Origin: Oscillospiraceae bacterium
GTDB lineage: Bacteria; Bacillota; Clostridia; Oscillospirales; Acutalibacteraceae
Length of the DNA stretch: 64,000 nt
NCBI GenBank assembly: GCA_015066465.1
Contig: SVOI01000002.1
Coordinates: 44,154 to 108,153 of the forward strand
Reading direction: 5' to 3'
The notes beneath the pieces are model-generated. The model searched no databases and was not told the DNA's origin. It saw only the letters and a list, made by a program, of their open reading frames with translations. The position numbers were made by a program, and so were the translations under genes. Shown in pieces: positions 10,324-57,698 of the stretch (position 1 is the first letter of the stretch; each line of letters starts with the position of its first letter).

Positions 10324-11304
10324 TTATTTAACAAACGGAAGTTTTTCTACAACTACCTTTTGTTTTTCTTTGTTTAAAGTTATTTTATGTTTAGATTTTC
10401 TACGTCCTTCACAACAATAATATAACTCGCCATTCTCTTCCAAAAAACATCTTTTGCCATTTTCCAAACCATCAAGATATGCAGTTTTGAAATCACTTCC
10501 CCGCTTTAATGCACCGAATCCTTTTTCACTTACGATAAAAACAACTCTGTCATCACTGTAATTTATAGTCCACCCTACATTACTTATCACTGTAATACAT
10601 TCATTTTCTCCATCAGAATCAACATCAAAAAGATAATCATCAATCAACTGATAATAATGCTCTTCATATATATTATTTTTTTCTGTTACTATGTCATCTT
10701 CACTTACTATTTCTGTTTCAAAAATCGCTAAACAATGTCCCCATTGTTGCTTTTGTTCATTATCATTCCCGCCATAACCAACACCTATGTATATAGAACC
10801 ATCTTTTTGTTCAAAAATAACATAATCAATCAAGGCACACGCCGTTGTAAGCTCACTTTGGTAAAAGTATTGAACACCCCAGGCACTTTTATTATTTTTT
10901 ATAAATTCTCTTTTTGAAAATTCGCCTGATGTATTTTCGTTGCTTTCAATATAGCGAAAGAACTTGTGATTTTTATTCACATCAAATTCAACCATTTTTC
11001 CACAAGCAACTCTTTTTATATTTTTTAATACATCAGTTCTTTTTATATATCCAAAACTCATATTAGAATAAACCTTATACACTCTTTCTGCATGTAACAT
11101 ACAAGTTCCATAAAGTTCTGGCGAAGAATTAATAAAAGCAAATCCTGTCGGCATAAACATTGCACTTTCGCCATTCATAGTTTCAAAAAATGTTGGCTCG
11201 GTTTTTTTGTTTTCTTTTTCGATATAGTTTATTAAAACCACTGAACCAGAAACAATAACAACCACCAAAGCCAACGCTATTAAAACAATCAACTTCTTTT
11301 TCAT
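10324..11304 (-). CDS. Signal-anchored hypothetical protein (paralog-array member, largest)
   Basis: About 326 aa. The MKKKLIVLIALALVVVIV anchor is shared with three upstream genes. Start moved to the ATG 5 nt after AGGGGGA. Confidence 0.7.
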   Translation of the reverse strand: MKKKLIVLIALALVVVIVSGSVVLINYIEKENKKTEPTFFETMNGESAMFMPTGFAFINSSPELYGTCMLHAERVYKVYSNMSFGYIKRTDVLKNIKRVACGKMVEFDVNKNHKFFRYIESNENTSGEFSKREFIKNNKSAWGVQYFYQSELTTACALIDYVIFEQKDGSIYIGVGYGGNDNEQKQQWGHCLAIFETEIVSEDDIVTEKNNIYEEHYYQLIDDYLFDVDSDGENECITVISNVGWTINYSDDRVVFIVSEKGFGALKRGSDFKTAYLDGLENGKRCFLEENGELYYCCEGRRKSKHKITLNKEKQKVVVEKLPFVK

Positions 11305-11336
11305 TAACATCCCCCTATTATCTTAAGCGTAGCGAT

Positions 11337-11957
11337 TTACGGCGCTGCGGTTGTTTCTATCGAGGAATATGTTACCTGTTTCTTTTTGTACATATTCTCA
11401 GAAAATTCATAATCCTCAATCAACCAATCACAAAAACCATCATAATCTTTAAAGAATGACCTTAGTTCTCTATTCAAGCCTTTATTAAGCGGTTTAAATT
11501 TAAAATCATCAAGTTCAATAGCACCATCTTTACCACCTAACACATAATAACAATCATCTTCTTCGGCTTTTGTTAAAAACAATATGTACTGGTGTTCATT
11601 TAAAAATTTTTCGCCTTCCTGAATTATTGTTATTTCGTAAGATGGTGCATCAAATACATCTTTTTTATTATATTCTATAAAAATCTCGTCTTTTTCTCCC
11701 GCGAACGTGACTATTACTTCCTGATAAAATTTACCATCTTTCTCATACACATCTTTTAATGGTTCACTTGGAATTGCATTGCCACAAAAGAAACCAGCAT
11801 AAGAGGTATCAATCCTGACACAACAATCTGACTCATCAATCAATCTTTGAAGTGTCCATTCAGATTTGTTTTCTGGATAATTAAAGGCTATTACACCAAC
11901 AGTTATTACAACCATTAGCGCAAATGATGTTACTAAAACAATCAACTTCTTTTTCAT
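11337..11957 (-). CDS. Signal-anchored hypothetical protein (paralog B)
   Basis: 206 aa. Clearly paralogous to 11998-12651 (NYPENKSEWTLQRLI-ESDCCV, ILFLTKA, GGK-GAI, C-terminal IETTAAP). Confidence 0.75.
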   Translation of the reverse strand: MKKKLIVLVTSFALMVVITVGVIAFNYPENKSEWTLQRLIDESDCCVRIDTSYAGFFCGNAIPSEPLKDVYEKDGKFYQEVIVTFAGEKDEIFIEYNKKDVFDAPSYEITIIQEGEKFLNEHQYILFLTKAEEDDCYYVLGGKDGAIELDDFKFKPLNKGLNRELRSFFKDYDGFCDWLIEDYEFSENMYKKKQVTYSSIETTAAP

Positions 11958-11997
11958 TATTAATCCCCCTATTATGAATCATCTTTAGCGTAGCGAT

Positions 11998-12651
11998 TTA
12001 TGGTGCGGCTGTTGTTTCAATATTACTGTAATCTATATATGGAATTGTTGTATTGTTGATATCAAACTCAGCGATAGTTGTTTTTTCAACTGGTATCATT
12101 TTGTCTGAAAACTTATATTCGTTTATTCGCCAATGCTCAAATTTTCTGTAATTATTCTCAAACTTCAACCAAACTTCAAACTTTAAATTTTCGTCAAGCG
12201 GCTCTAAACCGTCTTCTGTTATTTTTATTGCACCACTTTTACCACCTGTTATGTAATAATAATCGCCATCTTGGGCTTTTGTCAGAAACAAAATATATGG
12301 TGGTCTGTCTGAGCCCAAATAGCTGGGTGTGTATTCCAATGTACGTTTATAATCTTTAAACTCTTGAACGAGAATAAAATGTCCATCCGGAAAATACAAT
12401 TCATCGCGTTCATCTAAAAACAACAGATATTCACAATCATTAATTTCATTTTCTTTTACTTCAACATAAGGACCCGTATAGCAAAATTTCCCATTAACCT
12501 CTCTTAAAACCACACAACAATCAGATTCTTCAATCAATCTCTGGAGAGTCCATTCAGATTTGTTTTCAGGGTAATTAAAGACTATTACCCCGGCAACTGT
12601 TATAACCATTACAACAAATAATGCTATTAAAACAATCAACTTCTTTTTCAT
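11998..12651 (-). CDS. Signal-anchored hypothetical protein (paralog A)
   Basis: 217 aa, same anchor and motifs as 11337-11957. Its ATG overlaps the upstream stop (TAATG). Confidence 0.75.
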   Translation of the reverse strand: MKKKLIVLIALFVVMVITVAGVIVFNYPENKSEWTLQRLIEESDCCVVLREVNGKFCYTGPYVEVKENEINDCEYLLFLDERDELYFPDGHFILVQEFKDYKRTLEYTPSYLGSDRPPYILFLTKAQDGDYYYITGGKSGAIKITEDGLEPLDENLKFEVWLKFENNYRKFEHWRINEYKFSDKMIPVEKTTIAEFDINNTTIPYIDYSNIETTAAP

Positions 12652-13196
12652 TAAAAATCACCTTCACACCACATTTCCATAAACTCTCGTTGTTGTACTC
12701 CCAATGGTCGCAGATGTTCTTTATTGGCAGATTTAAAATTGCAACACCCTATAATTTGCTCAAGCAAAACGTTTACTGCTGTACATTCTGAAGCACCATA
12801 ATCATACCAAACCGCTTTATCAGCATAATACAACGTAACACACCAAAAGTCAGTAAAACTTACATAACCCTCTATTTCAGTTTTGTTTTTTACGAGCACC
12901 TCATCAATATAAGGTTTCATTAAATCAATCATAATTGCATCTGATTTCACTAATAATTCTTCAATATCGCCATCAGCATTTTTATACTGTGCTAAAATAT
13001 CATTTTCTTCTGTTACCACAAAAATATATCGCTCATCTGACAAAGGGTGCCAAATAACAAATTTCAGAATATAGTTTTCATAATCTTCAACGTTAAGATT
13101 TATAGTATTTTCAGAATTCTTGAAAACAACTACACCAATGGTTATTGATATAATTAAAAATAGAGATGCTACTGCAACAATCAACTTCTTTTTCAT
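12651..13196 (-). CDS. Signal-anchored hypothetical protein (divergent array member)
   Basis: 181 aa, MKKKLIVAVASLFLIISITIGVVVF anchor. The ectodomain is unrelated by eye to the others. Confidence 0.7.
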   Translation of the reverse strand: MKKKLIVAVASLFLIISITIGVVVFKNSENTINLNVEDYENYILKFVIWHPLSDERYIFVVTEENDILAQYKNADGDIEELLVKSDAIMIDLMKPYIDEVLVKNKTEIEGYVSFTDFWCVTLYYADKAVWYDYGASECTAVNVLLEQIIGCCNFKSANKEHLRPLGVQQREFMEMWCEGDF

Positions 13197-13218
13197 TATT
13201 AATCCCCCAAAAACTCAT

Positions 13219-13728
13219 TCAGCGTCTAAAAATACGGCTTATAAAAAACTTTAATTTATAAATCGCTTTATTGTGATTCATAGTTCTGCCCAAGAGATAG
13301 ATACCGGTAATCATTTCTACAATAGAAATTCCTAATAAAAATCCAGAAATAAACTCTCTGAAAGAAGAACCATCAATACAGAATGAAAGTGCAAGTAAAG
13401 AAATACCCATTATAATAAGAAAGAAGCTTGTACTCGAATCTTTTGATTGCTTCAGCTCTTGTATATCTTTAAGCATACCAAGTATTTCTTTATCATCGTA
13501 AACACGTATGCTTTTTTCATTTTCTTCACCATCTAAAAGCTCAGAAACCGAAATATCAAGCTCATTACAAAGAATTTCTACAACGGCGTAATCGGGCATA
13601 CACTTGCCGTTTTCCCACTTAGAAATTGTTTTGTTACTTACACCGATTCTTTCTGCAAGCTGTTCTTGTGTTAAATTTTTCTCTCTTCGCTTCAAGGCAA
13701 TAAAATTCCCTGTTGCTTGTTGGTTCAT
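13219..13728 (-). CDS. XRE-family HTH regulator with C-terminal transmembrane segments
   Basis: 169 aa. Cro/C1 HTH LTQEQLAERIGVSNKTISKWENGKCMPD, then two hydrophobic helices (FFLIIMGISLLALSF, FLLGISIVEMITGIYLLG). Confidence 0.85.
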   Translation of the reverse strand: MNQQATGNFIALKRREKNLTQEQLAERIGVSNKTISKWENGKCMPDYAVVEILCNELDISVSELLDGEENEKSIRVYDDKEILGMLKDIQELKQSKDSSTSFFLIIMGISLLALSFCIDGSSFREFISGFLLGISIVEMITGIYLLGRTMNHNKAIYKLKFFISRIFRR

Positions 13729-13820: not shown

Positions 13821-13853
13821 GAATGCAGAATTCAGAATGCATAATGCAGAATT
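13821..13853. repeat. Tandem heptad repeat (GAATGCA-like, about 4.5 units)
   Basis: GAATGCA GAATTCA GAATGCA TAATGCA GAATT, directly beside the 48-bp repeat, which itself contains CTGACCA x2. Confidence 0.8.
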
Positions 13854-13857
13854 TTAG

Positions 13858-13905
13858 CAAACTGACCACTGACCACGGGCGACCACAGGTCTGCCCCTAC
13901 AATTA
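13858..13905. repeat. 48-bp direct repeat, copy A (REP-like, contains imperfect hairpin)
   Basis: caaactgaccactgaccacgggcgaccAcaggtctgcccctacaatta. Matches 15357-15404 at 47 of 48 positions. Its last 3 nt are the esterase stop codon (minus strand TAA). Hairpin GGGCGACC-aca-GGTCTGCCC. Confidence 0.9.
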
Positions 13906-14988
13906 TCGTTTACTTAAATCCTGACTAAACATCCATTCTACCCACGGCTCTGTTCTGTAAAATCTGCCACTCATTCCGTGACCGAACTCATCCCAACGAG
14001 TATATTTTACTGGTGCTGAAACTTTTTCTAATTGGTTGTAGCACTCATCAGCCGAATCTATTTCTACTGTTTTGTCGTCAGAAGAATGTGCAATCCATAT
14101 AGGCATATTTTTAAGTAACTCAAAATCATATTCTTTACAGTTCGCAAATGCACCCATAACAGGAATTGCACAGGCGAAAAACTCAGGATATTTTGTAATT
14201 AACTTCCATGTACAAACGCCACCAAATGAAGTTCCTGTAACATAAATTCTATTTTTATCAATAAAATTCTCTTTACATAAAACTTCTATTAATTGCACTA
14301 CAGATTCAATGTAATTAACGGGTTTCATACCATTCCACATATCGCTATATGGTGCTTGTGGAACCAAAATTGAACAATTCTTATTTAAAAGCAATTCATC
14401 TAACCCGTGACTTTTAAAAATTCTTAATGGTTTTTTATTATCTATACCCATACCATTACCACCATGCAAATAAACGAACAGTGGGCTATTATCTTTCTGT
14501 GATTTTTTAAACCGATAATTTATCAACATATTATTTTCTGTGCTTATAAAACAATATTTTTTAAAATCACTTTTGAAAGTGTGGTGTTCTACAATATGCG
14601 ATTCTTCTTTTTGCATCACACTTTTAGCATAGAGTTTATTATGTTTATGATAATTTCTTAAATTCGTTATAGCATAGTGTTTCTGTTCTAATAAATTAAA
14701 GTTTATATTTTTATCGGTTTTACTTAAACCATCTTGGGTAAGGTTATATAAACAATTATCGCTACCTACAATATTATAACTACCATTCAGTAATCCCAAA
14801 ATTTCTTTTGACATGACTTTACTGTAATTATTATAAATTTCAACACAGTCTTTTTCAGTAAATTCAATAACAATATAATAATTTTTAAAATCTCTTTTTA
14901 TATATGGCTTAAAAGGAGTTTTATCGGCTAAATAGTCATATAAAATAATATCTCTGAATTTCATTTTATCACCCAATACATCTTGCAT
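13903..14988 (-). CDS. Alpha/beta-hydrolase (S9/dienelactone-hydrolase-like esterase)
   Basis: 361 aa. Nucleophile elbow GTSFGG, acid IAHSSDD, His EFGHGM. A better RBS (GGTGAT) serves the internal ATG at 14964, so the start is uncertain. Confidence 0.75.
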   Translation of the reverse strand: MQDVLGDKMKFRDIILYDYLADKTPFKPYIKRDFKNYYIVIEFTEKDCVEIYNNYSKVMSKEILGLLNGSYNIVGSDNCLYNLTQDGLSKTDKNINFNLLEQKHYAITNLRNYHKHNKLYAKSVMQKEESHIVEHHTFKSDFKKYCFISTENNMLINYRFKKSQKDNSPLFVYLHGGNGMGIDNKKPLRIFKSHGLDELLLNKNCSILVPQAPYSDMWNGMKPVNYIESVVQLIEVLCKENFIDKNRIYVTGTSFGGVCTWKLITKYPEFFACAIPVMGAFANCKEYDFELLKNMPIWIAHSSDDKTVEIDSADECYNQLEKVSAPVKYTRWDEFGHGMSGRFYRTEPWVEWMFSQDLSKR

Positions 14989-15011
14989 TTTTCAATAAAC
15001 TATGATACAAT
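14983..15011 (+). promoter_or_regulatory. Plus-strand SigA-type promoter facing the small-peptide gene
   Basis: TTGCAT (14983-14988), a 17-nt spacer, then TGaTACAAT (extended -10, 15003-15011). It overlaps the esterase start region. Confidence 0.6.
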
Positions 15012-15144
15012 AACAAACGGAACATAAGTTCCCAAGGAGTTATTCCTACGGTAGGCGGTTAGTCTCTTTTACAGAGAGACTGGACTCTCTGATTACATAG
15101 AAATCCTTTTTAGGAAATTTTGTTTTTTGAGAGTGGTGATTGCT

Positions 15145-15210
15145 ATGAGTGAAACAATCGCTTTATTAGCTATCATATTCTTAATCATTCTTGTTCTCAA
15201 GGATGAATAA
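15145..15210 (+). CDS. 21-aa hydrophobic peptide, candidate type I toxin
   Basis: MSETIALLAIIFLIILVLKDE. GGTGAT lies 4 nt upstream of the ATG. The gene has a ~127-nt structured leader and is followed at once by a terminator. Too short for the ORF track. Confidence 0.35.
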   Translation: MSETIALLAIIFLIILVLKDE

Positions 15211-15218
15211 AAAGAAAG

Positions 15219-15254
15219 CAACCGCCTGACTTCCAAATAAGGCGGTTGTTTTCT
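15219..15254. terminator. Bidirectional intrinsic terminator
   Basis: CAACCGCCT-12 nt-AGGCGGTTG, followed by TTTTCT on the plus strand and CTTTCTTTTT on the minus strand. Confidence 0.75.
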
Positions 15255-15312
15255 ATAACCCAATTATAAAGTGGAGTCTAACCGTCTACGGAATAACTCC
15301 TTGTTCATTTAT

Positions 15313-15340
15313 ATTATAACACGAAGATAAAAAATGTCAA
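15313..15340 (-). promoter_or_regulatory. Minus-strand near-consensus promoter facing the peptide gene and esterase
   Basis: Minus strand reads TTGACA (15335-15340), a 16-nt spacer, then TGTTATAAT (extended -10, TATAAT at 15313-15318). Confidence 0.65.
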
Positions 15341-15356
15341 CTATTTTTAGTTTCAA

Positions 15357-15404
15357 CAAACTGACCACTGACCACGGGCGACCGCAGGTCTGCCCCTACA
15401 ATTA
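15357..15404. repeat. 48-bp direct repeat, copy B
   Basis: Matches 13858-13905 at 47 of 48 positions. Its last 3 nt are the uvrC stop codon. Confidence 0.9.
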
Positions 15405-17240
15405 TTCACCGTGAAACATTTTATAAATCTCAACCGCATCCGCTTTTGAAATCCCCTGCACACTTTCTAATTCTTCAACACTTGCATTTCTTATATTGTC
15501 AATCGTTCTGAATTTCACTATAAGATTTTTTGCCTTTTTCTCACCAATGCCCTTAATTTGTGTGAGTGAATTTTCTAAAGCAGATTTTGTATGCTTTTTG
15601 CGGTGATATTCAACTGAAAAGCGGTGAACTTCGTCTTGAATCTGCGTAACAAGAGAAAAGGCTTTTCTTTTAGAATTAAACTCAATTCTGCCACCGCTTG
15701 TAGAAATTGCAGATGTGCGGTGCTTGTTATCTTTAACCATACCAAAAACTGGTATATCGAGATTAAATTCTTTTAAAAGTGGCAGAACTGCATTAACCTG
15801 ACCTTTACCTCCGTCAAGTAAAATAAGGTCTGGCAATTTACCAAAACCATATTCTTCGTTATCATTTTTATGATTGTAGTATTCAGTAAAACGACGCCTT
15901 AAAACTTCTTCCATAGAAGCGTAGTCATCTTGCCCCACAAAACCTTTTATTGCAAAGCGCCTGTATGCTTTTTTATATGGTCTGCCATCCTTGAAAACAA
16001 TCATACCAGCAACATTGTCACTACCAGCGGTGTGAGAAATATCGTAAGACTCAATATACTGAGGAATATTTTTCATACCAAGCATAAGCGCTAATTCTTC
16101 AAGTGCGTTTTTAGTTTTTTCACTACTTGAAAGCTTTTCTAATAGCTTTTGGGTAGCATTATTTTTGCACATTGTAATAAGCTTTAACTGGTCGCCTTTT
16201 TGTGGAATTACAATCTGCACATTTGTGTTTCGCTTTTCTGAGAGCCATTTTTCAATATCTTCTATGCCCTCAACCTCACCATCAATTTCAATTCGTGGTG
16301 GAATTGTTCTGTTTAAAGAGTAATAAGAAGTTAAAAACTCTGCTCTCATACTTTCGGGTGTTCCATTTTCTTCAAATATAAAATGCTCGGTGTCACAAAG
16401 CTGATTATCAGAAAAACGAAGAACTGCAATACACACTTTATTTTCAACAATACTAAGTGCAAAAACATCTTGTTCCTTGTAAGTAGAAGAAACGACCTTT
16501 TGCTTCGACTTTACCTTTTCAATACCCCTTATGGTATCACGAAGCTTTGCGGCTTTTTCAAAATTCAATTCTTCCGAGGCTTTTTCCATTTCTTGTTTTA
16601 ATTTACGAACAGTATCCTGAGTGCCAAGCTTTAAAAATTCAATAGCTTCTGTTACTCTTTCATCATATTCGCTTTCTGTAATTTTACCGGCACACACAGC
16701 ACAACATAAATCGAGATGAGAATTAAGACAAGGGCGTTCTTTTTTTATATCCCGAGGAAACACCTTGTTACAGGTAGGTAATTTATAAATTTTCTTTGCT
16801 TCATCGACTGCATTTTTTACAGAATACCCCGCAGTATATGGACCTAAATACTCAGCACCATCATCAGCCTTTTGAAACACAGCTTTGATATTTCGCCACG
16901 GTCTTTTTGTAATTTTGATATAGCTATAACCCTTATCATCCTTTAAAAGAATGTTGTATTTCGGCATATTCTGCTTTATTAAGCTACACTCTAAAACGAG
17001 TGCTTCGAATTCGCTATCTGTAAGAATGTAGTCAAAATTCTGCACGTTCTCAACCATTTTGCGAACCTTTGGTAAATGCTTCTCTTGTGAACCGAAATAC
17101 TGTGTAACTCTATTTTTCAAAGCCTTGGCTTTACCAATATAAATAATCTCTTTGTGAGAATCACGCATTATATAAACACCAGGACTAAGTGGCAATTTGT
17201 TTGCTTTGTCTTTTAATCTTTTTAATCTCTGGTCTTGCAT
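15402..17240 (-). CDS. uvrC: Excinuclease ABC subunit C
   Basis: GIY-YIG (GVYIMRDSHKEIIYIGKA), UVR domain, C-terminal (HhH)2 (IKGIGEKKAKNLI). Start set at MQDQRLK, 5 nt after AGGTGA; the ORF track starts 14 codons earlier. Confidence 0.95.
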   Translation of the reverse strand: MQDQRLKRLKDKANKLPLSPGVYIMRDSHKEIIYIGKAKALKNRVTQYFGSQEKHLPKVRKMVENVQNFDYILTDSEFEALVLECSLIKQNMPKYNILLKDDKGYSYIKITKRPWRNIKAVFQKADDGAEYLGPYTAGYSVKNAVDEAKKIYKLPTCNKVFPRDIKKERPCLNSHLDLCCAVCAGKITESEYDERVTEAIEFLKLGTQDTVRKLKQEMEKASEELNFEKAAKLRDTIRGIEKVKSKQKVVSSTYKEQDVFALSIVENKVCIAVLRFSDNQLCDTEHFIFEENGTPESMRAEFLTSYYSLNRTIPPRIEIDGEVEGIEDIEKWLSEKRNTNVQIVIPQKGDQLKLITMCKNNATQKLLEKLSSSEKTKNALEELALMLGMKNIPQYIESYDISHTAGSDNVAGMIVFKDGRPYKKAYRRFAIKGFVGQDDYASMEEVLRRRFTEYYNHKNDNEEYGFGKLPDLILLDGGKGQVNAVLPLLKEFNLDIPVFGMVKDNKHRTSAISTSGGRIEFNSKRKAFSLVTQIQDEVHRFSVEYHRKKHTKSALENSLTQIKGIGEKKAKNLIVKFRTIDNIRNASVEELESVQGISKADAVEIYKMFHGE

Positions 17241-17681: not shown

Positions 17682-17918
17682 TTATTTTTCAGTTTTCAAA
17701 ATACGCCATATACTCCGTTCGGAGTAATTGTATTTTTGAGCTAACTGTGGTACGTTGTCGCCATCATATTCACTGATAATAGCCTTGTGGGTGTAATCCT
17801 TTGAGAAAAGTCTATTAGGAAATGACACTTGTGTTCCGTGAAACATTTTGTAAATTGCCAAGGCATTTTCAATACCAATTTCATCAGCAATATCACGATA
17901 CACATCATAAGACCACAA
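17682..17918 (-). CDS. Mor/CD3324-like small HTH transcription regulator
   Basis: 78 aa. IADEIGIENALAIYKMFHGTQVSFP and C-terminal HTH LAQKYNYSERSIWRIL. It starts at TTG. An SD-preceded ATG (MSINEISFECQGV...) lies upstream in another frame, so the 5' end is uncertain. Confidence 0.6.
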   Translation of the reverse strand: MWSYDVYRDIADEIGIENALAIYKMFHGTQVSFPNRLFSKDYTHKAIISEYDGDNVPQLAQKYNYSERSIWRILKTEK

Positions 17919-18282: not shown

Positions 18283-19059
18283 ATGGATTTACTCAATAGC
18301 ACAAGTCAATCATTTGACTTCGCAGAAATATTTACAACTGCTATAAAAATTCCCGGTGTAAAAGTCAATCGAGATAAGTTTTTAGCAGAAAGATTTCCAA
18401 ATAAAAAATATGCCCTTCAAGATATTATTAATTTCGGACCAGTTTCCGCTGATATTAGTAAAGAGGAACTTTCAAAAATAGCAAATGGTTTAATAATAGA
18501 ACGCACAACAGAATCCTCAATAGTTTCTTTTTTAGCTGGATTACCTGGTGGCTGGGCAATGGCTGGAACAATACCTGCTGATATAGCACAATTCTTTGCT
18601 GTAACGTTAAGACTGGCACAGGAGTTAGGTTATCTTTATGGTGCAGAGGATTTTTGGAACAATGGAGAATTAGATAGTGAAAAAGCAAAAAACAAGTTAT
18701 TGGTTTACTGCGGTGTTATGTTTGGTGTTGCTGGAGCAGAAGCCGGTTTACATATTCTTTCAAGTCAACTCGCAAAAACAACTCTAGAAAAACTTCCGCA
18801 AAAAGCTCTTACCAAAACTTGGTGGTATCCTATTTTGAAAAAAATAGGAAAAGCCATAGGAATTAAAATTACTAAAGAGAAAGTAGCAAATGCACTTGCT
18901 AAATTAATACCTGTTTTCGGTGGTGTATTATCTGGAATACTAAATTTTACATCCCTAAAACCAATGGCAAATAAATTAAAAACAGAATTAGAAAAAACTG
19001 CTTACAACTACTCCGAAACCGATTTAGAAAGAGATATAAAAATACTGGAAAATATATAG
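18283..19059 (+). CDS. EcsC-family protein (putative)
   Basis: 258 aa. GGAGGA RBS. Central LAGLPGGWAMAGTIPADIAQFF...LRLAQELGYLYG and Gly-rich amphipathic segments resemble EcsC-like proteins. Confidence 0.5.
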   Translation: MDLLNSTSQSFDFAEIFTTAIKIPGVKVNRDKFLAERFPNKKYALQDIINFGPVSADISKEELSKIANGLIIERTTESSIVSFLAGLPGGWAMAGTIPADIAQFFAVTLRLAQELGYLYGAEDFWNNGELDSEKAKNKLLVYCGVMFGVAGAEAGLHILSSQLAKTTLEKLPQKALTKTWWYPILKKIGKAIGIKITKEKVANALAKLIPVFGGVLSGILNFTSLKPMANKLKTELEKTAYNYSETDLERDIKILENI

Positions 19060-36209: not shown

Positions 36210-36556
36210 ATAAGTCGGTAAAACTGTAAGCCGGGTTTTGTCGTTTAAGGCAATCATCTATCTACACCTTGCGTTGCCACAAGGTTCAAGCCACCCTTCG
36301 GGGTTGCGAATACATCGCTGTCCGGCAAACTCCCCATTCGGTGTTGCATCGAGTAGGGTTTACATGGCAGTATTGTCTCCAATACCCCGGTGAGCTCTTA
36401 CCTCGCCTTTCCACCCTTACCGTAAAAAACGGCGGTATATCTCTGTTGCACTTTCCCTAAGGTTACCCTCGGCGGCCGTTAGCCGTTACTCTGCCGTGTG
36501 ATGCCCGGACTTTCCTCGTCTGTGTTACCACATCCGCGACTGCCCATTTTACCGAT
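36210..36556 (-). ncRNA. rnpB: RNase P RNA
   Basis: Minus strand carries the universal GAGGAAAGTCCGGGC (P4/CR-I) and ACAAAACCCGGCTTA (CR-V) blocks. P1 pairing TCGGTAAAA/TTTTACCGA joins the ends. The GC-rich structured island has its own promoter. Confidence 0.92.
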
Positions 36557-57622: not shown

Positions 57623-57698
57623 GCTGATATAGCTCAGGTGGTAGAGTGCATCCTTGGTAAGGATGAGGTCACCGGTTCAAATCCGGTTATCAGCTCCA
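57623..57698 (+). tRNA. tRNA-Thr (anticodon GGU), CCA encoded
   Basis: Cloverleaf folded by hand. Acceptor GCTGATA/TATCAGC, anticodon stem CATCC/GGATG with loop TTGGTAA, T-arm ACCGG-TTCAAAT-CCGGT, 3' TCCA. Confidence 0.93.

What the first reader, a model, noticed from the sequence alone, without database searches (positions are those of the whole stretch)
14983..15340. Candidate type I toxin-antitoxin-like locus: 21-aa hydrophobic peptide between face-to-face promoters
The uvrC-esterase spacer contains a plus-strand promoter, TTGCAT-17-TGaTACAAT. A ~127-nt leader follows with several hairpins, including GGAAC-ataa-GTTCC at 15019-15032 and AGTCTCT/AGAGACT at 15061-15081. Then come GGTGAT and an ATG encoding MSETIALLAIIFLIILVLKDE, followed by a bidirectional terminator at 15219-15254. 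Facing it is a near-consensus minus-strand promoter, TTGACA-16-TGTTATAAT. Its transcript would either stop at the shared terminator, giving a ~90-nt RNA overlapping the 3' end of the peptide mRNA. Or it would read through antisense to the peptide ORF and into the esterase gene. The unit is enclosed by ~30-bp inverted arms (15034-15066 and 15274-15303). The 5' arm also contains AGGCGGTT, identical to the 3' half of the terminator stem, so alternative pairings are possible. A short hydrophobic peptide with a charged tail, convergent sRNA-like transcription and long-range 5'/3' pairing are hallmarks of Fst/TxpA/BsrG-type systems. The alternative is a MITE-like element carrying outward promoters.
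Basis: partly seen in the sequence, partly recalled or inferred. Interest (0 to 1): 0.7.

Follow-up and report, generated by a model that had tools for sequence, protein, structure and literature searches.

The report
Candidate new type I toxin-antitoxin module

Summary
The unit (window 14983-15340) is a discrete module. I found homologues in 12 further loci (13 with the window; 9 distinct sequences, 4 subtypes) from Acutalibacteraceae/Clostridia MAGs and metagenome contigs, in different contexts and in both orientations relative to uvrC. Close relatives of the window organism lack it.

All members keep:
- a weaker toxin-side promoter with an extended -10;
- a structured leader that buries the Shine-Dalgarno sequence, with compensatory changes between subtypes;
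- a 21-33 aa hydrophobic ORF with a polar or charged end, diverging mostly at third codon positions;
- a shared bidirectional terminator abutting the stop codon;
- a perfect-consensus facing promoter for a ~95-nt RNA.

No Rfam, Pfam, NCBIfam or PHROG family matches the window's RNAs or peptide.

Best reading: a new family of type I toxin-antitoxin-like modules with 3'-end overlap. It is laid out like par (Fst) and probably works like TxpA/RatA, but belongs to neither.

The inverted arms give the two RNAs the same 5' hairpin, not complementary ends. Their role is unexplained. They would clamp the ends of any read-through transcript. A MITE is unlikely.

The parts
14983..15011 (+). Toxin-side promoter P(+): -35 TTGCAT, 17-nt spacer, extended -10 TGaTACAAT
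   Evidence: Read. A -35 TTGnnn plus TGnTAnnnT occupies the same position in all 11 aligned elements. It is weaker than P(-).
15017..15256 (+). Predicted toxin mRNA, RNA(+), about 240 nt. Ends are inferred from the promoter and terminator and are not mapped.
   Evidence: Folds at -85.8 kcal/mol, z = -7.8. The homologous stretch is conserved in 12 other loci.
15019..15032 (+). 5'-terminal hairpin GGAAC-ataa-GTTCC. On the minus strand it reads as a terminator-like hairpin followed by a T-run.
   Evidence: It is replaced by a different hairpin (GCAGAG...CTCTC) in subtype L085/87/92 and is absent in L089.
15033..15066 (+). Arm X(+): CAAGGAGTTATTCC-TACG-GTAGGCGGTTAGTCTC
   Evidence: GGAGTT and ACGGTAGGCGGTTA are invariant in all 11 leaders.
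15061..15081 (+). Hairpin H1, AGTCTCT/AGAGACT. It shares its 5' strand with the end of X(+).
   Evidence: The other subtypes have GCCCTC/GAGGGC at the same place, which is a compensatory change.
15084..15140 (+). Shine-Dalgarno-occluding structure. ACTCTC (15084-15089) pairs with GAGAGT (15129-15134), which abuts the SD GGTGAT (15135-15140). An inner hairpin lies at about 15098-15118. GUGAU also pairs with AUCAU inside the ORF.
   Evidence: MFE. Probability of the SD being unpaired is 0.13 in the window and 0.01-0.13 in all 10 members, against an RNA-wide mean of 0.32-0.41. Stems covary: CCCUCUUU/AAAGGGGG (L043), CCCUCUUA/UAAGGGGG (L091), CCCUCUAAAU/AUUUAGGGGG (L085).
15145..15210 (+). ORF of 21 codons plus stop: MSETIALLAIIFLIILVLKDE. 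This is the putative membrane toxin.
   Evidence: GRAVY is 1.81. An ORF of 21-33 aa sits at the same place in every member. Differences fall mostly at the third codon position and are conservative.
15213..15256 (.). Shared bidirectional intrinsic terminator with a 12-nt loop, an A-tract on one side and a T-tract on the other
   Evidence: Folds on both strands at -24.4 and -22.4 kcal/mol. 14 terminator pairs are supported in the alignment of 10 small RNAs, 4 of them with changes on both sides.
15207..15306 (-). Predicted antitoxin small RNA, RNA(-), about 95-100 nt: X(-) hairpin, linker and terminator. It is complementary to the last ~50 nt of RNA(+), including the stop codon.
   Evidence: -31.9 kcal/mol, z = -4.4. 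The covariance model finds it at 78-97 bits in 13 loci and nowhere else.
15274..15303 (-). Arm X(-): CAAGGAGTTATTCC-GTAGACGGTTAGACTC, at the very 5' end of RNA(-). It folds as GGAGUU/GACUCC enclosing CCG-UAGA-CGG.
15313..15340 (-). Antitoxin-side promoter P(-): TTGACA, 16-nt spacer, TGtTATAAT
   Evidence: 12/12 with TG. TTGACA-16/17-TATAAT is exact in all 11 elements.

Best explanation

Toxin side: a moderately strong promoter makes a ~240-nt mRNA. Its long leader is heavily folded and buries the ribosome-binding site, so the 21-aa hydrophobic peptide is made rarely or only after refolding or processing.

Antitoxin side: a consensus-strength promoter on the other strand makes a ~95-nt RNA. It runs into the same bidirectional terminator and is therefore perfectly complementary to the last ~50 nt of the toxin mRNA (stop codon plus terminator hairpin).

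Proposed action: the two terminator hairpins have unusually large loops. They pair, a duplex forms, and the toxin mRNA is destroyed, probably by RNase III as in TxpA/RatA. If the short RNA is lost, the peptide inserts into the membrane.

Shown here: the conserved anatomy, the coding signature, the Shine-Dalgarno sequestration with covariation, the promoter asymmetry, the complementarity, and the patchy, context-independent distribution.

Inferred only: that both RNAs are made with these ends, that the peptide is toxic, that the small RNA neutralises it, and the route of neutralisation.

The paralogous 5' hairpins (X) on both RNAs are part of the design but their role is open. My preferred guess has two parts. 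X(+) plus the complement of X(-) forms a 5'-3' clamp in toxin transcripts that pass the terminator. The antitoxin, being the exact complement of that 3' arm, opens the clamp.
For: 1. Discrete conserved module. Homology starts at one -35 box and ends at the other. In L011 both flanks differ from the window. In L043 the module is inverted relative to uvrC. Six further metagenome copies (L085, L086, L087, L089, L091, L092) and one duplicate (L090) sit next to unrelated genes.

2. The ORF is always present at 21-33 aa, with SD GGTGAT, GGGGGTGAT or GGAGGGAT, GRAVY 1.3-1.9, and a K/KK/KDE/KQQ end. The stop codon abuts the terminator.

3. Coding signature. Differences by codon position (1st/2nd/3rd) are 3/1/8 for L085 vs L087, 6/5/13 for window vs L086 and 5/3/7 for L043 vs L091. 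The ORF is 62-81% identical where the leader is 83-93%.

4. The SD is sequestered in 10 of 10 members (probability unpaired 0.01-0.13), with compensatory stem changes.

5. P(-) is exact consensus in all members. P(+) is always weaker.

6. The terminator is supported by covariation and folds on both strands.

7. Patchy presence among species with 91-98% identical UvrC.

8. Both RNAs fold far better than shuffles.

9. This layout is the one described for Gram-positive type I systems: antisense RNA on the 3' side, SD/anti-SD, 5' stem-loop and 3' terminator (PMC8594479). The txpA/ratA precedent shows repression through 3' overlap alone via RNase III (PMC4147584).
Against: - There are no expression data of any kind. 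Transcript ends are inferred.
- The window peptide matches no toxin family.
- Its hydrophobic run of about 16 residues is short for a membrane span.
- The overlap with the antisense RNA is only about 50 nt and does not reach the ribosome-binding site. No conserved pairing of the small RNA with the SD/start was found.
- The conserved X hairpins are not needed by this mechanism and remain unexplained.
- The family is small (9 distinct sequences), so the covariation statistics are thin.
- In the window, the strong P(-) points at the hydrolase gene, which has no obvious promoter of its own. Read-through could therefore have a second, mundane role.
Confidence: 0.6

Rival explanations
1. The module is a small membrane-protein gene with a cis-antisense regulator, but not a toxin-antitoxin pair. 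The peptide would have a benign role, for example modulating a membrane complex or sensing stress. The facing RNA would simply tune its level.
For: All the anatomical evidence fits this equally well. Many small hydrophobic bacterial proteins are not toxic. No known toxin family matches.
Against: - The extreme cis-repression of translation, plus a consensus-strength antisense promoter, is the pattern expected for a product that must be kept off.
- The peptide sequence drifts fast while only hydrophobicity and a charged end are kept. That is typical of pore- or membrane-damaging toxins rather than of specific partners.
- Presence is patchy among near-identical species and in unrelated contexts.
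Confidence: 0.2
2. X is a sensor hairpin for a protein or small ligand, and it decides termination versus read-through at the shared terminator in both directions. In each RNA the X core GGCGGUUA can pair with the ascending terminator strand UAACCGCC as an antiterminator. Read-through from the strong P(-) would drive the downstream gene (the hydrolase here, NUDIX in L011) and would also give a full antisense RNA to the peptide gene.
For: - The X core is sequence-invariant in all arms, more than a plain hairpin needs.
- The same 8-nt motif occurs four times per locus and its complement twice.
- In L006 the NUDIX gene directly follows uvrC, so the inserted module cuts the downstream gene off from the uvrC promoter.
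- A second terminator-like hairpin lies on the minus strand at 15032-15019.
Against: - No Rfam family matches.
- The orientation relative to neighbours is not fixed. In L043 P(-) faces the end of uvrC. Neighbours differ everywhere else.
- The terminator plus X-hairpin state is much more stable than the 7-8 bp antiterminator.
- No covariation between the X core and the terminator could be shown, because both are nearly invariant.
Confidence: 0.12
3. The unit is a MITE-like or palindromic mobile element whose arms are terminal inverted repeats. On this view the ORF and promoters are incidental.
For: - The arms are long inverted repeats (score 39 against a shuffle maximum of 25).
- Presence is patchy among close relatives, and one copy is inverted.
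- The module plus hydrolase is bracketed by a 55-nt direct repeat.
Against: - The arms are internal. Conservation continues outward through both promoters and stops at the -35 boxes.
- Every copy found keeps an intact ORF with a coding-type substitution pattern.
- X(+) arms of different elements are more alike (0.71-0.95) than the two arms of one element (0.62-0.74). The arms are therefore old paralogues under separate constraint, not ends kept matched for a transposase.
- There is one copy in the 64-kb window and none elsewhere in 796 kb of related loci.
- There is no target-site duplication at the arm ends.
Confidence: 0.05

Closest known systems
par locus of Enterococcus faecalis plasmid pAD1 (Fst toxin mRNA RNA I / antitoxin RNA II) and its chromosomal relatives
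   Same: [quoted passage not shown]
- The overlap stays essentially outside the coding region.
- The toxin is a short hydrophobic peptide with a charged tail.
- The toxin leader is structured and occludes the ribosome-binding site.
- The antitoxin is small (65-100 nt).
   Different: - In par, direct repeats DRa/DRb make the 5' ends of the two RNAs complementary and block the ribosome (PMC4147584). Here the repeats are inverted, so the 5' ends are alike rather than complementary. No conserved pairing to the SD/start exists.
- The peptide has no match to any Pfam family, Fst included.
- No Rfam match.
TxpA/RatA of Bacillus subtilis, with SprG/SprF, and the 'holin-like toxin' family Hol_Tox PF16935
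   Same: - Converging transcripts overlap only at their 3' ends.
- The antitoxin has no complementarity to the translation initiation region, so repression is expected to act through duplex-triggered degradation (PMC4147584).
- One family member, the 33-aa peptide in L089, gives a near-full-length but sub-threshold match to Hol_Tox (E = 0.0017; 18.6 bits against a cut-off of 23.3).
- TxpA relatives have been annotated as holin-like toxins (PMC2887945).
   Different: - The window peptide (21 aa) and six other family peptides give no match at all.
- The overlap is about 50 nt here, against about 75 nt or more.
- The small RNA is about 95 nt, against 222 nt for RatA (that figure is from my own knowledge).
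- Paralogous X hairpins on both RNAs are, as far as I know, not described for that family.
hok/sok (plasmid R1) and aapA1/IsoA1 (Helicobacter pylori)
   Same: Toxin mRNAs are kept inert by SD sequestration and by a long-distance 5'-3' interaction (from my own knowledge of these systems). Any read-through RNA(+) in this family is predicted to close with a 25-30 bp helix between X(+) and the complement of X(-).
   Different: - Those are Gram-negative systems with the antisense RNA at the 5' side or inside the mRNA.
- Here the clamp needs read-through of a terminator that looks efficient in the window subtype.
- There is no sequence relation.
Ibs/Sib of Escherichia coli
   Same: The toxin is about as short: 18-19 aa, almost purely hydrophobic (from my own knowledge).
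   Different: - Sib covers the whole ibs ORF.
- It is a Gram-negative system.
- There is no shared terminator design and no sequence relation.
Clostridioides difficile type I modules (CD2517.1/RCd8 and others)
   Same: Type I systems in Clostridia with convergent antisense RNAs (PMC6563280, PMC5961336).
   Different: - Those toxins are about 50 aa with lysine-rich tails and longer overlaps (from my own knowledge).
- No match to any Rfam model.
- Different order: Peptostreptococcales against Oscillospirales.

Membership tests
Type I toxin-antitoxin systems (the class) | Small hydrophobic peptide ORF with its own ribosome-binding site, conserved as a coding sequence | tested here: met
   The ORF is present in all 13 loci. 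GRAVY is 1.3-1.9. Divergence is biased to the third codon position.
Type I toxin-antitoxin systems (the class) | Separately promoted non-coding RNA complementary to the toxin mRNA | tested here: met
   At sequence level only. A consensus promoter, a ~95-nt RNA and ~50 nt of perfect complementarity at the shared terminator. The transcripts themselves were not observed.
Type I toxin-antitoxin systems (the class) | Peptide is toxic when over-produced, and the RNA neutralises it | not testable with these tools
   This needs expression experiments.
Fst/RNAII (par) | Toxin of the Fst/Ldr family | tested here: not met
   No Pfam or NCBIfam hit for the window peptide, even at E <= 10.
Fst/RNAII (par) | Convergent RNAs sharing a bidirectional terminator, with the overlap outside the coding region | tested here: met
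   The overlap reaches only the stop codon and last codons.
Fst/RNAII (par) | Direct repeats (DRa/DRb) that make the antitoxin's 5' end complementary to the toxin's initiation region | tested here: not met
   The repeats are inverted, so the two RNAs carry like sequences. There is no conserved helix of 7 bp or more at the SD/start across subtypes.
TxpA/RatA (Hol_Tox, PF16935) | Toxin matches Hol_Tox/TxpA | tested here: inconclusive
   Window peptide: no hit. Only the L089 relative hits, and below the cut-off (18.6 against 23.3 bits, E = 0.0017).
TxpA/RatA (Hol_Tox, PF16935) | 3'-end overlap without complementarity to the initiation region | tested here: met
TxpA/RatA (Hol_Tox, PF16935) | RNase III-dependent degradation of the toxin mRNA | not testable with these tools
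   Needs an rnc mutant or in vitro cleavage.
Any curated RNA family (Rfam 15) | Covariance-model score at or above the gathering threshold | tested here: not met
   Best scores were 22.4 bits (SR1, terminator only; gathering score 45) and 22.1 bits (SSRC34_2; gathering score 48, E = 0.8). In the whole window only RNase P and one tRNA reach threshold.
MITE / small palindromic mobile element | Inverted repeats at the very ends of the conserved unit | tested here: not met
   Conservation extends beyond both arms through the promoters.
MITE / small palindromic mobile element | Many copies per genome, including decayed ones | tested here: inconclusive
   One copy in the 64-kb window and none elsewhere in 796 kb of related loci. 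All copies found carry the ORF. Whole genomes could not be scanned.

The most novel reading that the evidence does not exclude
This is a new design of RNA-controlled toxin module in which the antitoxin works by mimicry. The toxin mRNA and the antitoxin carry paralogous 5' hairpins whose core (GGCGGUUA) also copies the descending strand of their shared terminator. The toxin's 5' hairpin can clamp onto the mRNA's 3' extension, or compete with terminator formation. The antitoxin is both the exact complement of that 3' arm and a look-alike of the 5' arm. It would therefore switch the mRNA between clamped and open, or terminated and read-through, states rather than simply masking a site. One shared factor that binds X could control both RNAs at once.
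Probability: 0.15. Interest if true: 0.75.

Novelty: new variant of a known kind. Interest (0 to 1): 0.55.

Why it matters
If confirmed, three things would follow.
- It would add a type I toxin-antitoxin family from Oscillospirales, a dominant but largely uncultured gut and rumen group. My two literature searches turned up no type I system for this group. They were not designed to exclude one.
- Its toxin, at 21 aa, would be among the shortest known.
- It would show that such modules can be found from raw sequence and then verified by comparative genomics, even though gene callers miss them. None of the 21-28 aa peptides is in a 15-billion-protein collection.

The paired 5' hairpins and the four-fold repeated terminator motif are not explained by current models of antisense control. 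They could reveal a further way in which a 3'-overlapping RNA governs a distant ribosome-binding site or mRNA stability. On the practical side, short self-contained toxin/antisense cassettes are useful as counter-selection markers and RNA devices (PMC7699646, PMC12721322).

Tried and rejected
- Rfam with permissive thresholds on the spacer, and gathering thresholds on the whole window: nothing relevant.
- Pfam, NCBIfam and PHROGs on seven family peptides: only one sub-threshold Hol_Tox hit, for L089.
- Near-identical strains L001-L004 gave a 100% identical spacer and so no information.
- The X pattern in viral contigs gave 0 hits.
- blastn of the module against plasmids gave only a chance 40-nt hit. 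tblastn of the L089 peptide against plasmids found nothing.
- The search for homologous proteins refuses queries under 40 aa.
- The supplements of Fozo 2010 are not held.
- RNAduplex and an exhaustive helix search for par-like pairing between the small RNA's 5' domain and the toxin leader gave inconsistent sites across subtypes, so I rejected that pairing.
- I tested the idea that the 5'-3' clamp frees the Shine-Dalgarno sequence. The SD stays paired in the clamped, unclamped and 3'-blocked states alike, so the idea is not supported.
- I tested recent gene conversion between the arms. Arms of one element are no more alike than arms of different elements, so I rejected it.
- Marginal covariance-model hits (L018, L051 and others) are ordinary bidirectional terminators after unrelated genes.
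- A leaderless ORF at the start of RNA(-) (MNKELFRRRLDSTL in the window) is not conserved.
- L088 from the metagenome scan is a chance match inside a coding-looking region.
Full report
**Where we are.** The window comes from an uncultured member of the Acutalibacteraceae (Oscillospirales, Clostridia). The UvrC protein encoded at 15402-17240 (-) occurs identically on JGI and ENA metagenome contigs. It is 91-98% identical to UvrC of ruminant and gut MAGs labelled Acutalibacteraceae, Oscillospiraceae or Clostridia. The finding lies in the 437-nt spacer between uvrC and a minus-strand gene for an S9/alpha-beta hydrolase (13903-14964).

**Checking the observation.**
- Plus-strand promoter: TTGCAT (14983), 17-nt spacer, TGaTACAAT (ending at 15011).
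- Hairpin GGAAC-ataa-GTTCC at 15019-15032.
- Hairpin AGTCTCT/AGAGACT at 15061-15081.
- GGTGAT at 15135-15140.
- ATG at 15145, encoding MSETIALLAIIFLIILVLKDE, with the stop at 15208-15210.
- An A-tract/hairpin/T-tract terminator at about 15213-15256. It folds on both strands, at -24.4 and -22.4 kcal/mol.
- Minus-strand promoter TTGACA-16-TGTTATAAT at 15340-15313, a 12/12 match and the best site in the region.
- Inverted arms at 15033-15066 and 15274-15303.
- AGGCGGTT both in the left arm and in the terminator.

These features exceed chance. The arms score 39, against 17.1 +/- 2.4 in shuffles. The predicted RNAs fold with z = -7.8 and z = -4.4. One correction applies: the promoters face each other and lie outside the arms.

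**The unit is a conserved, autonomous module.**
- Among 80 species-level genomes with related UvrC, the spacer sequence recurs downstream of uvrC in L007, L008, L009 and L011 (90-100% identity). A diverged form is present in L043, whose UvrC is 72% identical.
- It is absent from L005, L006, L010 and L012-L017, whose UvrC is 91-98% identical.
- In L011, homology to the window begins exactly at the -35 of the minus-strand promoter and ends just past the -35 of the plus-strand promoter. Both flanks differ, and the next gene is a NUDIX hydrolase rather than the window's hydrolase.
- In L006 the same NUDIX gene follows uvrC directly, with no module.
- In L043 the module is inverted relative to uvrC.
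- A pattern built from the arm core found seven further copies on metagenome contigs: L085 and its duplicate L090, L086, L087, L089, L091 and L092. An eighth hit, L088, is a chance match. The neighbours of these copies are unrelated.
- The family held here is therefore 13 loci, 9 distinct sequences and 4 subtypes.
- A covariance model of the small RNA scores 78-97 bits on all of them. It finds nothing else in the window or in 796 kb of related loci. Its marginal hits are ordinary terminators.
- No copy was found in viral contigs or plasmids.

**What is conserved.** All members share the same order of parts.
- A toxin-side promoter with TTGnnn and an extended -10.
- Usually a 5'-terminal hairpin.
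- Arm X(+).
- A hairpin (H1) that uses the end of X(+).
- An anti-SD/SD structure, followed by a strong Shine-Dalgarno sequence of the GGTGAT type.
- A hydrophobic ORF whose stop codon abuts the A-tract of a large-looped bidirectional terminator.
- Arm X(-).
- An exact-consensus promoter, TTGACA-16/17-TATAAT.

The peptides are:
- MSETIALLAIIFLIILVLKDE (window)
- ...KSE (L008)
- MNEIIVVLVIILFTIVVIKQQ (L086)
- MEYYFLIVLVLIVATGYITSIKK (L043)
- MEYLTILVIVLVVATGYIISIKK (L091)
- MEYYYLIITLVLITVIIFASKK (L085)
- MEYYYLIVTLVLIIVIILTSKK (L087, L092)
- MQYVTYGDLFTFAMVIVGIISLIFTILAFMHKK (L089)

**The ORF behaves as a coding sequence.** Frame, length class, start, stop, hydrophobicity (GRAVY 1.3-1.9) and a polar or charged end are all kept while the sequence drifts. 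Differences concentrate at third codon positions: 3/1/8 for L085 vs L087, 6/5/13 for window vs L086, and 5/3/7 for L043 vs L091. Replacements are conservative. The ORF diverges faster (62-81% identity) than the leader (83-93%). This means two things. The leader is constrained as RNA. And the ORF is constrained as a hydrophobic peptide, not by pairing with an antisense RNA along its length.

**The leader hides the ribosome-binding site.**
- In all ten members folded, the Shine-Dalgarno window has a probability of being unpaired of 0.01-0.13. The RNA-wide mean is 0.32-0.41.
- The occluding stems covary between subtypes: CCCUCUUU/AAAGGGGG (L043), CCCUCUUA/UAAGGGGG (L091), CCCUCUAAAU/AUUUAGGGGG (L085) and ACUCUC/GAGAGU (window).
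- H1 changes from AGUCUCU/AGAGACU to GCCCUC/GAGGGC.
- SD/anti-SD pairs, 5' stem-loops and 3' terminators are the descriptors used to recognise type I toxin mRNAs (PMC8594479).

**The facing RNA.**
- RNA(-) would start about 7 nt after the consensus -10, at about 15306.
- It forms the X(-) hairpin: GGAGUU/GACUCC enclosing CCG-UAGA-CGG.
- It ends at the shared terminator, near 15207.
- Fourteen terminator pairs are supported in the alignment of ten small RNAs, four of them with changes on both sides.
- It is perfectly complementary to the last ~50 nt of RNA(+), that is, the stop codon and the terminator hairpin.
- The terminator loops are large, 12-19 nt, which would suit loop-loop contact. That last point is inference.

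**What the arms are and are not.**
- Because they are inverted in the DNA, the two RNAs carry like, not complementary, 5' sequences. The par mechanism, in which direct repeats make the 5' ends pair over the initiation region (PMC4147584), therefore does not apply.
- Neither RNAduplex nor an exhaustive helix search found a pairing between the small RNA's 5' domain and the toxin SD/start that holds across subtypes.
- X(+) arms of different elements are more alike (0.71-0.95) than the two arms within one element (0.62-0.74). The arms are thus old paralogues, each with its own constraint: a 4-8 nt insert and GGC in X(+), and GAC in X(-).
- Their core, GUAG[G/A]CGGUUAG, is almost invariant. It repeats the descending strand of the terminator on both strands. 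Each RNA therefore has two copies of GGCGGUUA and one of UAACCGCC.
- Any RNA(+) that passes the terminator is predicted, in all eight members tested, to close with a 25-30 bp helix between X(+) and the complement of X(-).
- In subtype L085/L087 the shared terminator does not fold on the toxin strand, because of two C-A mismatches. In L085, L087 and L092 a canonical terminator lies beyond and overlapping the -35 of P(-). L092 keeps a foldable shared terminator as well (-17.1 kcal/mol). In L085/L087, at least, the toxin mRNA probably spans the whole antitoxin gene and carries the clamp.
- In the window subtype the terminator looks efficient on both strands, so the clamp would form only in read-through molecules.
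- The SD stays paired in the clamped, unclamped and 3'-blocked states. I therefore cannot assign the clamp a role in translation. A role in stability, or in presenting the 3' arm to the antitoxin, is my guess.

**Most likely mechanism.**
- This is a type I toxin-antitoxin-like module with 3'-end overlap. It is laid out like par and probably acts like txpA/ratA.
- In txpA/ratA the antitoxin has no complementarity to the initiation region, and represses through duplex formation at the 3' ends followed by RNase III cleavage (PMC4147584).
- Translation is additionally held down in cis by the leader.
- I put this at 0.6.
- The steps from 'RNAs are made' onward are inferred.

**Rivals.**
- A non-toxic small membrane protein with a cis-antisense regulator (0.2).
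- An X-dependent termination/read-through switch that also feeds the downstream gene from the strong P(-) (0.12). This is prompted by the invariant motif and by the fact that the module separates uvrC from a gene that is otherwise directly downstream. It is weakened by the variable orientation and neighbours.
- A MITE (0.05). This is contradicted by the internal position of the arms, the intact ORF in every copy, the separately constrained arms and the single copy seen.

**Comparison with known families.**
- No Rfam model reaches threshold. The best scores are 22 bits, against gathering scores of 45-48.
- The window peptide has no meaningful Pfam, NCBIfam or PHROG match: no hit in Pfam or PHROGs, and only a chance-level NCBIfam hit (TatA, E = 0.19, 11.4 bits).
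- Only the 33-aa L089 peptide gives a near-full-length but sub-threshold match to Hol_Tox PF16935 (E = 0.0017; 18.6 against 23.3 bits). TxpA relatives have been annotated as 'holin-like toxins' (PMC2887945). A distant link to TxpA is therefore possible but unproven.
- The module is not a member of Fst/RNAII: the toxin family and DRa/DRb features were tested and not met.
- Membership of TxpA/RatA is inconclusive.
- None of the 21-28 aa peptides is in the public protein collection. The L089 peptide is present but unnamed.

**Verdict.** The type I toxin-antitoxin reading is the best available and is considerably strengthened by comparative data, but it remains a prediction. The arms are real and conserved, but they do not do what a par-like model would require. 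I rate the finding as a new variant (a new family) of a known kind, with interest 0.55.

Noticed in passing
window 15351-15405 and 13852-13905: A ~55-nt element starts right at the stop codon of uvrC and recurs right at the stop codon of the hydrolase gene, with 1 mismatch in 39 nt. It consists of the GC-rich hairpin GGGCAGACC-TGY-GGTCGCCC followed by tandem GTGGTCA. The module plus hydrolase cassette (~1.5 kb) is therefore bracketed by direct repeats.
   Followed up: partly
downstream of uvrC in L005-L017, L043 (e.g. L006:5840-6414; L011:5840-6400): This site is a variable hotspot among closely related species. L006 has NUDIX only. L011 has module plus NUDIX. The window and L007-L009 have module plus hydrolase. 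L043 has an inverted module next to a NUDIX 3' remnant.
   Followed up: partly
L085:~330-390 of the extracted element; L087, L092 likewise (just outside P(-)): In this subtype a 10-11 bp hairpin (GCAAAATGTC...GACATTTTGC) followed by a U-run overlaps the -35 of the antitoxin promoter on the toxin strand. In L085 and L087 the shared terminator does not fold on that strand. In L092 it still folds (-17.1 kcal/mol). The toxin mRNA in L085/L087 probably covers the whole antitoxin gene.
   Followed up: partly
window 14965-15340, minus strand: The hydrolase gene starts 19 nt from the toxin promoter's -35 and has no evident promoter of its own. Its transcription may depend on read-through from P(-) or from uvrC. 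A weaker promoter-like site, TTGAGA-17-TATGAT, lies at 15200-15172 antisense to the ORF.
   Followed up: no
window 36211-36555 (-) and 57623-57695 (+): Bacterial RNase P RNA class A (269.8 bits) and one tRNA. These are the only Rfam matches at gathering threshold in the window.
   Followed up: no
window 17682-17903 (-), 18283-19059 (+): A Mor-family (phage Mu-type transcription activator) ORF and an unannotated 258-aa ORF lie just upstream of uvrC. This may be a remnant of a mobile element.
   Followed up: no
window ~11000-13200: Internally repeated segments. Stretches around 11818-11969, 11931-12662 and 11000-11360 each match two or more places in related loci. This suggests tandem paralogous genes downstream of the HTH_3 gene at 13219-13728.
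   Followed up: no
L089:~100-330: The most divergent family member has a 33-aa peptide and no 5'-terminal hairpin. It is the only one whose peptide resembles Hol_Tox (sub-threshold). Its exact peptide is in the public protein collection without a name, on 2 contigs.
   Followed up: partly
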